From positions 69,731 through 101,730 of the forward strand of contig JABLTJ010000005.1 in assembly GCA_013166775.1 (NCBI GenBank): 32,000 nt of DNA, in the 5' to 3' direction. Below the pieces are notes generated by a model. It had not been told where the DNA came from, ran no database searches, and saw nothing but the letters and a program-made list of their open reading frames with translations. This document shows positions 19,459 through 19,638 of the stretch, in pieces. Source of the stretch: Promethearchaeati archaeon. GTDB taxonomy: Archaea > Asgardarchaeota > Heimdallarchaeia > Heimdallarchaeales > Heimdallarchaeaceae. How positions within the stretch are numbered: the first letter of the stretch is position 1; every line of letters begins with the position of its first letter. The translations under genes were made by a program, and so were the position numbers.

Positions 19459-19638
19459 CCTAGCAAGGTTTTCAGGTTCGGAATGAGTCTGAGTGTTACC
19501 CCTTCACTATGGCCGCGACGCATCGCAGCGAACGGCTGTTCCCAAGCCCTCGCGGAACTTAGTACAAAGCCACACGTTGAAGGACTTAACTTTCCCGACC
19601 ATCTGGAACGCATCCAGATGTTGTCTGACCTTACTAGG
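19459..19638 (-). rRNA. 5S rRNA-like gene with circularly permuted domain order (3' half upstream of 5' half), including a leader/trailer clamp helix
   Basis: A GC-rich island in AT-rich DNA. The minus-strand RNA, read 5'->3', has these elements in order. (1) CCUAGUAAGG, the clamp 5' strand. (2) An extra hairpin. (3) AAGUUAAG, the loop B 3' side. (4) UCCUUCA, helix II 3' strand. (5) GGCU/UUGUAC...UAAG-UUCC-GCGA-GGG-CUUG...GGAAC/AGCC, forming helix V, loop E, helix IV and a GNRA loop D. (6) GCUGCGA-UGCG-UCGCGGC, helix I closed by a tetraloop. (7) CAUAG, loop A. (8) UGAAGGG, helix II 5' strand. (9) GUAACAC. (10) UCAG-ACUCAUUCCGAAC-CUGA, helix III and loop C. (11) AAA. (12) CCUUGCUAGG, the clamp 3' strand. 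All helices are complementary as read. The motifs match archaeal 5S consensus strings as I recall them (CAUAG, ACAC, CUCAUUyCGAACC, AAGUUAAG, UUGUACU, GGGAA). Confidence 0.75.

What the first reader, a model, noticed from the sequence alone, without database searches (positions are those of the whole stretch)
19459..19638. Circularly permuted 5S rRNA gene: the 3' half is encoded upstream of the 5' half and the ancestral ends are joined by a UGCG tetraloop
Read on the minus strand, this GC-rich island contains every conserved 5S element, and every helix is base-complementary, but the order is rotated. Moving 5'->3' on the minus strand, the core runs from plus coordinate 19592 down to 19472, with these elements:
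- loop B 3' side AAGUUAAG (19592-19585)
- helix II 3' strand UCCUUCA
- helix V GGCU/AGCC
- loop E UUGUAC/GGAAC
- helix IV capped by a GCGA tetraloop
- helix I 3' strand GCUGCGA, then UGCG (UNCG-type loop), then helix I 5' strand UCGCGGC (19529-19512)
- loop A CAUAG
- helix II 5' strand UGAAGGG
- GUAACAC
- helix III / loop C UCAG-ACUCAUUCCGAAC-CUGA (19492-19472)
Re-cutting the sequence at the UGCG loop gives a normal ~118-nt 5S. It aligns motif for motif with archaeal 5S sequences as I recall them (..GGCCAUAG..ACAC..CUCAUUCCGAACC..AAGUUAAG..UUGUACU..GGGAA..). No complementary half lies on either side that could give a collinear gene: the flavodoxin-like CDS is on one side and AT-rich spacer plus tRNA-Ser on the other. 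The mature RNA must therefore be one of three things. It could be a linear 5S with new termini at the helix III / loop B junction and a capped helix I. It could be a circular 5S. Or it could be a molecule re-opened at the tetraloop after circularisation. Permuted 5S rRNAs have been reported for some organelle genomes. I know of no report for an archaeal chromosome.
Basis: partly seen in the sequence, partly recalled or inferred. Interest (0 to 1): 0.92.

Follow-up and report, generated by a model that had tools for sequence, protein, structure and literature searches.

The report
Circularly permuted 5S rRNA gene
This Asgard (Heimdall-group) archaeon encodes its 5S ribosomal RNA with the two halves in swapped order; about 30 related genomes do the same, which explains why no 5S gene could be found in them, and the flanks suggest the RNA may be cut and joined into a circle.

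Summary

**What is there**
- On the minus strand, 19591-19471 is a 121-nt 5S rRNA in the order 3' half, UGCG cap, 5' half.
- Rfam misses it at threshold. It gives only two weak partial hits, in swapped order.
- After rotation in silico, the sequence matches a canonical-5S profile end to end (E 2e-18).

**How widespread it is**
- The same arrangement occurs at 32 loci in 29 other species-representative genomes. Most are labelled Heimdallarchaeota, the rest include Baldr- and Njordarchaeota.
- Two of these are closed Heimdallarchaeum genomes, whose authors reported that no 5S gene could be predicted.
- All helices covary, so this is not a pseudogene or an assembly artefact.

**New finding**
- The leader (19639-19628) and the trailer (19469-19458) form a covarying 12-bp stem.
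- This stem abuts a 4-bp helix (CGGG:CCUG) flanked by AAA bulges, resembling an archaeal bulge-helix-bulge splice site.
- Cutting there by the standard rule and ligating would restore the canonical helix III/loop B sequence exactly.

**Reading**
- The gene being the real 5S is near-certain.
- A 121-nt circular mature RNA is inferred, at about even odds. A nicked linear form or an unprocessed form remain possible.
- I found no prior report.

The parts
19661..19669 (-). A/T-rich TATA-like box (AUUCAAAAA), about 21 nt upstream of the leader stem. It is the likely promoter of the pre-5S transcript (inferred).
   Evidence: Sequence reading. Relatives carry (G)AUUAAAAAA or CUUAAAAAG at the same distance from GCCUAG. 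This was not tested with an archaeal promoter model.
19628..19639 (-). Leader strand of the leader-trailer stem (GCCUAGUAAGGU).
   Evidence: It pairs with 19469-19458. In the 25-sequence native-order alignment, 11 of 12 pairs show changes on both sides and 94% of cells are paired. It is also predicted by alifold, cofold and the MFE fold.
19625..19627 (-). Invariant CAG next to the stem. It could pair with the trailer CUG as an alternative to the central helix.
   Evidence: It is invariant across the 25 aligned Heimdall-group sequences (A3) and absent from the excluded L021/L041. This pairing appears in the centroid fold. Its role is unresolved.
19600..19620 (-). Leader hairpin CAUCUGGA-UGCGU-UCCAGAUG, specific to the Heimdall group.
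   Evidence: 8 bp, 97% of cells paired, 3 pairs with compensatory changes. It is absent from the Baldr, Njord, L022 and L059 versions.
19594..19597 (-). Leader strand of the 4-bp central helix (CGGG).
   Evidence: It pairs with CCUG at 19476-19473. Relatives have CAGG (A-U in place of G.U). In other lineages it changes together with the trailer, for example CGUG:CACG in L039.
19591..19593 (-). Leader 3-nt bulge AAA. The predicted cut lies between 19592 and 19591.
   Evidence: AAA in 25 of 26 Heimdall-group loci (AUA in L064), and AAG or AAA in the other lineages. The cut position follows the standard rule for bulge-helix-bulge sites and is an inference.
19471..19591 (-). Permuted 5S rRNA core, 121 nt. 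The order is loop B 3' side, helix II 3' strand, helix V, loop E, helix IV, helix I 3' strand, UGCG cap, helix I 5' strand, loop A, helix II 5' strand, helix III, loop C.
19519..19522 (-). UGCG tetraloop capping helix I, where the ancestral 3' and 5' ends are joined.
   Evidence: The helix I hairpin (19529-19512) is paired in 100% of cells. In relatives the loop is UGCG, UUCG, UACG, UAUG or GUUA, and helix I is lengthened by 2 to 6 bp in L039, L022 and L043.
19473..19476 (-). Trailer-side strand of the central helix (CCUG). It overlaps the 3' strand of helix III.
19470..19472 (-). Trailer 3-nt bulge AAA. The predicted cut lies between 19471 and 19470.
   Evidence: The cut position is inferred.
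19458..19469 (-). Trailer strand of the leader-trailer stem (ACCUUGCUAGGU).
   Evidence: (helix 1).
19422..19428 (-). T7 run, a likely terminator. A weaker UUCUUU follows the stem directly at 19457-19452.
   Evidence: Sequence reading. Most relatives have a run of 5-6 T immediately after the stem. The role is inferred.
19762..19844 (+). tRNA-Ser(GCU), transcribed divergently from the 5S gene. This neighbourhood is conserved.
   Evidence: The same spacing and orientation occur in L004, L005, L021 and L064.

Best explanation
This is the organism's functional 5S rRNA gene, in circularly permuted order.

The gene appears to be transcribed on the minus strand as an independent precursor of about 190 nt. 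It has its own A/T-rich promoter box and ends at a T-run. The precursor reads as follows:
- leader
- 3' half of 5S, from loop B through helices II, V and IV to the 3' strand of helix I
- UGCG cap
- 5' half of 5S, from the 5' strand of helix I through loop A and helix II to helix III and loop C
- trailer

Helix I is therefore permanently closed by a stable tetraloop. The chain is open between the 3' strand of helix III and loop B.

Leader and trailer pair into a 12-bp stem. The stem abuts a 4-bp helix (leader CGGG with CCUG) that has a 3-nt AAA bulge on each strand. This is a relaxed bulge-helix-bulge (BHB) motif, the substrate of the archaeal splicing endonuclease EndA.

Most likely the endonuclease cuts both bulges and the RtcB ligase joins the ends, as happens with archaeal 16S/23S precursors, tRNA introns and permuted tRNAs. 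The product would be a covalently closed 121-nt circular 5S rRNA with the canonical sequence ...CCUGAA|AGUUAAG... restored.

What is shown:
- the permuted order
- the 5S fold, with covariation
- conservation across 29 other genomes
- the leader-trailer stem, with covariation
- complementarity of the central helix

What is inferred: the promoter, the terminator, the cleavage, the ligation and incorporation into the ribosome.

My confidence that this is the real, functional permuted 5S gene is about 0.93. My confidence that the mature form is circular is about 0.5. The figure given below is for the whole statement.
For: **5S identity**
- The rotated sequences align end to end, with no indel at the junction, to Rfam-verified canonical archaeal 5S.
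- The profile HMM gives a single full-length hit at E 2.4e-18.
- RNAalifold recovers helices II, III, IV and V, and 21 of 23 pairs have compensatory changes.

**Structure in native order**
- 96.2% of cells are paired, against 27-49% when the partners are slid.
- 25 of 52 pairs changed on both sides.
- No shuffle out of 500 reached the observed value on any measure.

**Conservation**
- 32 further loci in 29 genomes, each representing a different species, carry the same break point.
- Three of these genomes carry two intact paralogous copies with different flanks.

**No canonical 5S found**
- The authors of the two closed Heimdallarchaeum genomes state that 5S genes 'could not be predicted' (PMC8813620). 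Each of those genomes has two permuted copies.
- At gathering score Rfam found all 9 canonical controls and none of 11 permuted loci.
- No Heimdall-type sequence in canonical order turned up in the metagenome scan.

**Processing**
- 11 of 12 pairs in the leader-trailer stem are compensatory.
- Cofolding leader and trailer gives an outer stem, a trailer bulge of 2-4 nt (mostly 3, A-rich) and a central helix of 3-5 bp in every lineage.
- The central helix stays complementary as the sequences change: CGGG or CAGG with CCUG, and CGUG with CACG.
- Cutting after the second bulge nucleotide gives a junction of exactly canonical length and sequence in every lineage. L039 needs a one-base register shift, which one search already applies. 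L061 needs one too, read by eye. With that shift, L061 reproduces CCUGGAAGUCAAG, a sequence seen in real canonical genes.

**The cap is structural**
- The loops are UNCG-type, and helix I is lengthened in some lineages.
- An engineered E. coli 5S with its native ends joined by a tetraloop is functional (PMC7283268).
Against: - No RNA data were available, so transcription, the mature ends and circularity are all untested.
- The BHB is not canonical. No second flanking helix is predicted beyond the leader bulge.
- In most Heimdall-group sequences a hairpin sits between the outer stem and the central helix.
- In L022, L043 and L059 the central helix has only 3 standard pairs plus a G.A.
- The CCUG strand is also the 3' strand of helix III. 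The MFE and consensus folds of the whole precursor form helix III rather than the central helix.
- An invariant CAG in the leader offers a competing pairing.
- The rest of this organism's genome could not be scanned for a canonical 5S.
- The negative metagenome scan has no positive control showing that Heimdall-type 5S sequences are present in that collection at all.
- A recent paper states that circularisation is part of 16S/23S processing but not 5S processing in the archaea studied so far (PMC12918454).
Confidence: 0.55

Rival explanations
1. The gene is functional and permuted, but the mature RNA is linear. Leader and trailer are cut or trimmed off without ligation. The ribosome then holds a 5S of about 121 nt with a capped helix I and a nick between helix III and loop B.
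For: - All evidence for the permuted gene applies equally here.
- Permuted mitochondrial 5S rRNAs of brown algae are linear molecules with relocated ends (PMC4267664).
- Helix III is a self-contained hairpin that remains attached through its 5' strand.
- The BHB-like motif is imperfect.
Against: - From general knowledge, not tested here: in archaea, products of EndA cleavage are normally ligated.
- The predicted cuts give a junction with exactly the canonical number of nucleotides in every lineage. A permanently nicked molecule would not need that precision.
Confidence: 0.22
2. The transcript is not processed. The RNA of about 190 nt is the mature form, and the leader-trailer stem (plus the hairpin) is a permanent new terminal helix. 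This helix would hold the ends together, as helix I does in ordinary 5S, and would act as an expansion segment at the helix III/loop B junction.
For: - The MFE and consensus folds show an intact 5S fold with the stem and hairpin as extra arms of a junction.
- The likely transcription start and the T-run lie right at the ends of the stem.
- Large insertions in archaeal 5S are tolerated, as in Halococcus (title and abstract of PMC7530397, listed).
Against: - The stem sequence is free to vary completely between lineages, and even between paralogues in one genome, which is typical of spacers.
- The hairpin is absent from four lineages.
- The conserved complementarity between leader C(A/G)GG and CCUG competes with helix III and would have no role in an unprocessed RNA.
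Confidence: 0.13
3. The RNA is circularised and then reopened at the helix I cap, regenerating ordinary 5S ends. This is how permuted tRNAs are matured.
For: There is a precedent in permuted tRNA genes, which are expressed through a circular intermediate (cited in PMC4267664). Pyrococcus 23S is circularised and then reopened elsewhere (PMC7758197, listed).
Against: - The sequence joining the ancestral ends is only a 4-nt UNCG-type tetraloop on a perfectly paired helix. In some lineages the helix is lengthened and recapped with UUCG.
- That is the signature of a stable structural cap, not of a spacer carrying a cleavage signal.
Confidence: 0.05
4. The locus is a rearranged pseudogene or an assembly artefact, and a canonical 5S exists elsewhere in the genome.
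For: Only that the rest of this organism's genome could not be searched.
Against: - The sequence is identical in three assemblies.
- The arrangement is present in two closed long-read genomes, where no canonical 5S could be predicted.
- Compensatory changes maintain every helix across 29 genomes.
- No other 5S-like signal exists in the 32-kb window.
Confidence: 0.02

Closest known systems
Canonical archaeal 5S rRNA (Rfam RF00001)
   Same: - It has the same helices I-V and the same conserved loops: CCAUAG in loop A, CAUUCCGAAC in loop C, GUUAAG in loop B, and GUAC...GGGAA in loop E.
- It has the same length, 121 nt.
- After rotation it aligns to canonical genes without any indel.
   Different: - The gene order is rotated.
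- Helix I is closed by a tetraloop.
- The chain is interrupted between helix III and loop B.
- The gene has a leader-trailer stem.
- It scores below the Rfam gathering score, 21.5 and 15 bits against 38.
Permuted mitochondrial 5S rRNA of brown algae and other stramenopiles (Valach et al. 2014, PMC4267664)
   Same: It is a natural 5S in which conventional helix I is replaced by a closed hairpin and the ends are relocated.
   Different: - It is organellar and highly derived.
- Its ends lie at the junction of domains alpha and gamma (loop A), not between helix III and loop B.
- No flanking processing stem is described, and the mature RNA is linear.
- No such Rfam family matched this region even at E<=10.
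Circularly permuted tRNA genes (Cyanidioschyzon merolae, cited; Thermofilum from my own knowledge)
   Same: - The 3' half is encoded upstream of the 5' half.
- The precursor ends are brought together in a BHB-type structure.
- Expression goes through cleavage, ligation and a circular RNA.
   Different: - In tRNAs the joining sequence is removed, so the final product is linear with normal ends.
- Here the joining sequence is a 4-nt structural cap that looks permanent.
BHB-dependent excision and circularisation of archaeal 16S/23S pre-rRNA; circular or permuted mature 23S (PMC12918454, PMC7758197)
   Same: - There is a leader-trailer processing stem carrying a bulge-helix-bulge site.
- The ligated circle can be the form that sits in the ribosome.
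   Different: - Those genes are collinear.
- The process is described for 16S and 23S and explicitly not for 5S.
- Only low-level 5S circles of uncertain meaning were seen in Sulfolobus and Halobacterium (PMC3326292).
Engineered circularly permuted 5S in E. coli (Huang et al. 2020, PMC7283268)
   Same: The native ends are joined by a tetraloop and new ends are opened elsewhere. The ribosomes are functional.
   Different: - It is artificial.
- The new ends were placed in loop C or loop D and fused into 23S rRNA.

Membership tests
5S rRNA (RF00001) | Three-domain fold: helix I closing a three-way junction (loop A), helices II and III with loops B and C, helices V and IV with loops E and D. | tested here: met
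   All helices are present and covary. The helix I hairpin is paired in 100% of cells. The topology is rotated.
5S rRNA (RF00001) | Conserved loop sequences, and collinear full-length similarity to known 5S. | tested here: met
   This is met only after rotation in silico: a single hit covering profile positions 5-112 of 119, E 2.4e-18, and an end-to-end alignment.
5S rRNA (RF00001) | Score at or above the Rfam gathering threshold (38 bits) on the genomic sequence. | tested here: not met
   Two partial hits of 21.5 and 15.0 bits. None of 11 permuted loci passed, whereas all 9 canonical controls did. The collinear model cannot score a rotated gene, so this failure comes from the model's topology and does not count against 5S identity.
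5S rRNA (RF00001) | [quoted passage not shown] | not testable with these tools
   This needs ribosome purification or cryo-EM.
Substrate of the archaeal splicing endonuclease (bulge-helix-bulge motif) | A central 4-bp helix. | tested here: met
   - CGGG or CAGG with CCUG: 4 standard pairs in 25 of the 26 scorable Heimdall-group loci. L061 also reaches 4 pairs once its register is shifted by one base.
- CGUG with CACG in L039.
- 3 pairs plus G.A in L022, L043 and L059.
Substrate of the archaeal splicing endonuclease (bulge-helix-bulge motif) | Two 3-nt bulges on opposite strands, each 3' of its central-helix strand. | tested here: met
   The leader has AAA, AAG or AUA. The trailer has AAA, AAU or GAA, in the expected 5'-helix-bulge-3' arrangement on both strands.
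Substrate of the archaeal splicing endonuclease (bulge-helix-bulge motif) | Flanking helices on both outer sides (the strict hBHBh' form). | tested here: inconclusive
   - On one side the leader-trailer stem is present and covaries.
- In most Heimdall-group sequences a hairpin is inserted on the leader strand between that stem and the central helix.
- L021 and L041 have a proper adjacent 5-bp helix, GUGGU with ACCAC or ACUAC.
- On the other side no helix is predicted.
- This fits only the relaxed bulge-helix-loop class.
Substrate of the archaeal splicing endonuclease (bulge-helix-bulge motif) | Actual cleavage by EndA and ligation by RtcB. | not testable with these tools
   This needs an in vitro cleavage assay or reads spanning the junction.
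Permuted mitochondrial 5S (mtPerm-5S type) | Ends relocated to the junction of domains alpha and gamma, with a 5' hairpin replacing helix I. | tested here: not met
   The break here lies between helix III and loop B. No Rfam family other than RF00001 gave a 5S-type hit in the region at E<=10.

The most novel reading that the evidence does not exclude
The 5S rRNA inside the ribosomes of Heimdall-, Njord- and Baldr-group Asgard archaea is a covalently closed circle, made by the tRNA-splicing machinery from a permuted gene. This would be the first organism-wide circular 5S rRNA. All lineages share the same break point, so the permutation would be old within Asgard archaea. That raises the question of which 5S arrangement the archaeal ancestor of eukaryotes had.
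Probability: 0.4. Interest if true: 0.95.

Novelty: new variant of a known kind. Interest (0 to 1): 0.88.

Why it matters
5S rRNA is regarded as a universal gene that is easy to find and essentially constant.

- **A natural exception in cellular ribosomes.** A whole group of cellular organisms, the archaea closest to eukaryotes, encodes it rotated. This is a natural counterpart of an engineered E. coli construct.
- **It explains a published gap.** No 5S gene could be predicted in the closed Heimdallarchaeum genomes.
- **It affects genome quality scoring.** Under the usual MAG quality standard, to my knowledge, a genome counts as 'high quality' only if 5S is detected. These lineages are therefore systematically penalised, and the locus is at risk of being annotated as hypothetical ORFs.
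- **It makes a concrete hypothesis testable.** The splicing endonuclease and ligase may build a circular 5S. One junction sequence can be searched for in existing RNA-seq data.
- **It gives an immediate practical product.** A rotated covariance model would annotate these genes.

Tried and rejected
2. **Scan of 241 million metagenome records for the ligated, canonical-order junction** (CAGACYCAYYCCGAACCTGRA N0-3 AGTYAAG).
   - I hoped to find either RNA-derived contigs or relatives with canonical order.
   - All 14 hits are ordinary 5S genes of unrelated GC-rich archaea.
   - The result is negative but lacks a positive control.
3. **Exact-protein look-ups of the two spurious ORFs lying over the locus** (71 aa and 81 aa), to find short, possibly transcript-derived, contigs. 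Neither is on record.
4. **A two-step processing model for the Heimdall group.**
   - The first cut would use the CAG:CUG pairing next to the stem.
   - After ligation, CCUG-AAA would be followed directly by the hairpin, giving a canonical BHB for a second excision.
   - This works neatly for the window and for L004, but not for L005-type sequences, which have two mismatches next to the central helix. L021 and L041 lack the CAG altogether (read by eye). It remains an idea only.
5. **Leader CGGG pairing with UCCG of loop C**, as in the centroid fold. I rejected it because relatives with CAGG cannot form it.
6. **A short helix next to the central helix** (GGU:ACC in the window). It is not conserved across the main group.
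7. **The idea that the leader segment is merely a relic copy of the helix III 3' strand, left by a tandem duplication.** In the Heimdall group and in L039 the segment is complementary to that strand (4 of 4 positions) rather than identical to it (2 of 4).
8. **RNAalifold on the rotated alignment did not call helix I**, because the ends were misaligned between lineages. Helix I was assessed in native order instead.
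Full report
**1. The observation**

- At gathering score Rfam finds only tRNA-Ser(GCU) in the 32-kb window.
- At E<=1 there is no other 5S-like signal anywhere in the window.
  - 19610-19520 (21.5 bits): only the helix V, loop E, helix IV and helix I 3' part is aligned convincingly.
  - 19514-19415 (15.0 bits): model positions 7 to about 60 (CCAUAG...CCGAAC) are aligned.

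Infernal could not be run on a rotated sequence. Instead I built a profile HMM from nine canonical 5S genes that Rfam itself scored at 69-110 bits.
- The rotated window sequence gives one hit over profile positions 5-112 of 119 (56.4 bits, E 2.4e-18).
- The native sequence gives two partial hits in swapped order.
- Eight relatives behave the same way.

**2. Not an artefact**

The HypE protein next to the locus occurs on contigs from three separate sequencing runs. The 400 bases around the 5S are identical in all three and in the window. The flanks are unique sequence: a flavodoxin-like gene ending at 19449 on one side and tRNA-Ser on the other.

**3. Relatives**

I scanned one genome per species (185,579 species) with a pattern that demands the permuted order: TGGGAA, a gap, GCCATAG, a gap, CAYYCCGAAC. 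It returned 61 loci.
- 32 loci, from 29 genomes, have the window's architecture. Upstream they carry GAAAGUUAAG...GUACU, and downstream the gene stops after CCUGAAA.
- Most of these genomes are labelled Heimdallarchaeota.
- They include both closed genomes, Ca. Heimdallarchaeum aukensis (CP084166) and Ca. H. endolithica (CP084167), each with two copies.
- More divergent versions occur in Baldrarchaeota (L039, L049), Njordarchaeota (L043), an unclassified Asgard MAG (L022), a MAG labelled Thermoproteota (L059) and an unclassified archaeon (L061).
- The remaining 29 loci are ordinary 5S genes (Nitrososphaerales, bacteria) that happen to have TGGGAA upstream. They served as controls.
- At gathering score Rfam found all 9 canonical controls tested and none of the 11 permuted loci tested.

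**4. The fold is under selection**

Cores of 121 nt in the Heimdall group, and 122-131 nt elsewhere, were cut out and rotated.
- They align end to end with canonical archaeal 5S, with no indel at the new junction.
- RNAalifold recovers helices II, III, IV and V, and 21 of 23 pairs show compensatory changes.

In a native-order alignment of 25 distinct Heimdall-group precursors:
- 96.2% of cells form standard pairs, against 27-49% when the partners are slid by 1-3 columns.
- 25 of 52 pairs changed on both sides.
- No shuffle out of 500 reached the observed value on any measure.
- The helix I hairpin is paired in every sequence.

The cap of helix I is UGCG, UUCG, UACG or UAUG in the Heimdall group. 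In L039, L022 and L043 helix I is 2 to 6 bp longer and recapped with UUCG or GUUA. These are stable structural tetraloops, so they do not look like spacers.

**5. Probably the only 5S**

[quoted passage not shown] Those same genomes carry two intact permuted copies each.

A scan of 241 million metagenome records for a Heimdall-type sequence in canonical order found only unrelated canonical genes. This negative result has no positive control.

Other Asgard lineages (Borr-, Jord- and Kariarchaeum) are reported with detectable 5S genes. On those reports, the permutation would be specific to some lineages rather than pan-Asgard.

**6. Flanks, the new finding**

| Feature | Window coordinates (minus strand) | Evidence |
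|---|---|---|
| Leader strand of stem, GCCUAGUAAGGU | 19639-19628 | 11 of 12 pairs compensatory, |
| Trailer strand of stem, ACCUUGCUAGGU | 19469-19458 | same |
| Leader hairpin | 19620-19600 | covaries; Heimdall group only, |
| Leader CGGG (CAGG in many relatives) | 19597-19594 | pairs with CCUG, |
| Trailer-side CCUG | 19476-19473 | |
| AAA bulges | 19593-19591 and 19472-19470 | |

- The stem sequence is completely different in L016/L019, L031/L051, L021/L041, L061, L022, L039, L043 and L059, yet it remains complementary in all of them.
- Immediately 5' of the loop B sequence, the leader CGGG can pair with CCUG, and each strand is followed by AAA.
- This is the 5'-helix-bulge-3' layout of an archaeal bulge-helix-bulge (BHB) site on both strands.
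- The central helix stays complementary as it changes between lineages: CGUG with CACG in L039, and CCGG or CUGG with ACGG (3 pairs plus G.A) in L022, L043 and L059.
- I applied the standard rule, known from the tRNA and rRNA literature, that the cut falls after the second bulge nucleotide. This gives ends at 19591 and 19471.
- Joining those ends gives CCUGAA|AGUUAAG. That is the canonical continuity between helix III and loop B, with exactly the canonical number of nucleotides, in every lineage. L039 needs a one-base register shift, which applies. L061 needs one too, read by eye.
- L021 and L041 also have a proper 5-bp helix adjacent to the central helix.

An A/T-rich box lies about 21 nt upstream of the stem and a T-run follows it. 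The primary transcript is therefore probably little more than the stem-closed precursor. Its predicted fold is -71.5 kcal/mol, with a z-score of -3.15.

**7. Caveats on the mechanism**

- The motif is relaxed. No helix is predicted beyond the leader bulge.
- The Heimdall-group hairpin interrupts the outer side of the motif.
- CCUG is also the 3' strand of helix III, and whole-precursor folds prefer helix III.
- An invariant leader CAG (19627-19625) offers a competing pairing.
- No RNA data could be reached. Cleavage, ligation, circularity and ribosome incorporation are therefore inferences by analogy with archaeal 16S/23S processing, tRNA splicing and permuted tRNAs.
- Engineered E. coli 5S with the native ends joined by a tetraloop is functional, so a capped helix I is compatible with the ribosome (PMC7283268).

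**8. Comparison and novelty**

Natural permuted 5S rRNAs are known only from stramenopile mitochondria. These have a different break point (loop A) and a linear product (PMC4267664).

Archaeal circularisation is established for 16S and 23S and is stated not to apply to 5S (PMC12918454). Only low-level 5S circles of doubtful meaning were seen in Sulfolobus and Halobacterium (PMC3326292).

Seven full-text searches found no report of a permuted or circular 5S in Asgard or any other archaea. Papers on 5S expansion segments, on leader-trailer helices and on Asgard rRNA do not mention it either. The library does not cover subscription journals fully.

**9. Verdict**

The locus is a genuine, conserved, circularly permuted 5S rRNA gene. 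It is very probably the only 5S of these archaea (about 0.93).

It is a new variant of known kinds: permuted RNA genes and BHB-type rRNA processing. The mature topology is open:
- circular: about 0.5
- nicked linear: about 0.22
- unprocessed: about 0.13
- reopened at the cap: about 0.05

Noticed in passing
window 19648-19761 and 19762-19844 (+); L004, L005, L021, L064: tRNA-Ser(GCU) is transcribed divergently from the permuted 5S, about 115 nt away. The same spacing and orientation recur in several Heimdall-group genomes. The shared intergenic region carries a conserved AACAUUUCGAC next to UUUAAA (as read on the minus strand), which looks like the BRE/TATA of the tRNA gene.
   Followed up: partly
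L021 and L051 (CP084166.1); L031 and L041 (CP084167.1); L016 and L020 (MAG 8H_bin2): Three genomes carry two paralogous permuted 5S copies. The cores are nearly identical, with compensatory differences in helix V, but the leader-trailer stems and hairpins are entirely different. The two paralogue types are shared between the two Heimdallarchaeum species.
   Followed up: partly
window 19614-19608 and 19524-19518 (minus strand): The leader hairpin loop and the helix I cap share the heptamer GAUGCGU. In relatives the two loops vary independently, so this may be coincidence.
   Followed up: no
L023 (JBHLQZ010000003.1, labelled Thorarchaeota); L059 (JAPDJY010000015.1, labelled Thermoproteota): L023 has a Heimdall-type permuted 5S, flanks included, that is almost identical to those of Heimdall MAGs. 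This may be mis-binning or a wrong label. L059 carries a permuted 5S of the Njord/L022 type under a non-Asgard label. That is either a mislabel or a sign that the trait extends beyond Asgard.
   Followed up: no
window 19483-19698 (+) and 19507-19752 (-): Two mechanical ORFs (71 aa and 81 aa) lie across the 5S locus. They could be annotated as hypothetical proteins in genomes where the RNA gene goes unrecognised. Neither product is on record in the public gene collection.
   Followed up: yes
L061 1446-1820 (minus strand): In this divergent member a tRNA gene lies about 200 nt upstream of the permuted 5S on the same strand, which suggests possible co-transcription. This differs from the divergent tRNA-Ser arrangement of the main group.
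   Followed up: no
window 19904-23314 and beyond; window about 9900-14500 by offset from L001 (L001 1100-5696): The neighbourhood holds hypE, hypF and a cluster resembling a membrane-bound hydrogenase or Nuo complex downstream. Bacterial-type DNA gyrase A and B lie upstream (Pfam calls). These are ordinary for this group and unrelated to the finding.
   Followed up: no
window 18480-18890 (-) and 18523-18900 (+): A 136-aa ORF lies antisense to, and almost fully overlaps, the YccF-family gene. It is most likely a spurious shadow ORF.
   Followed up: no
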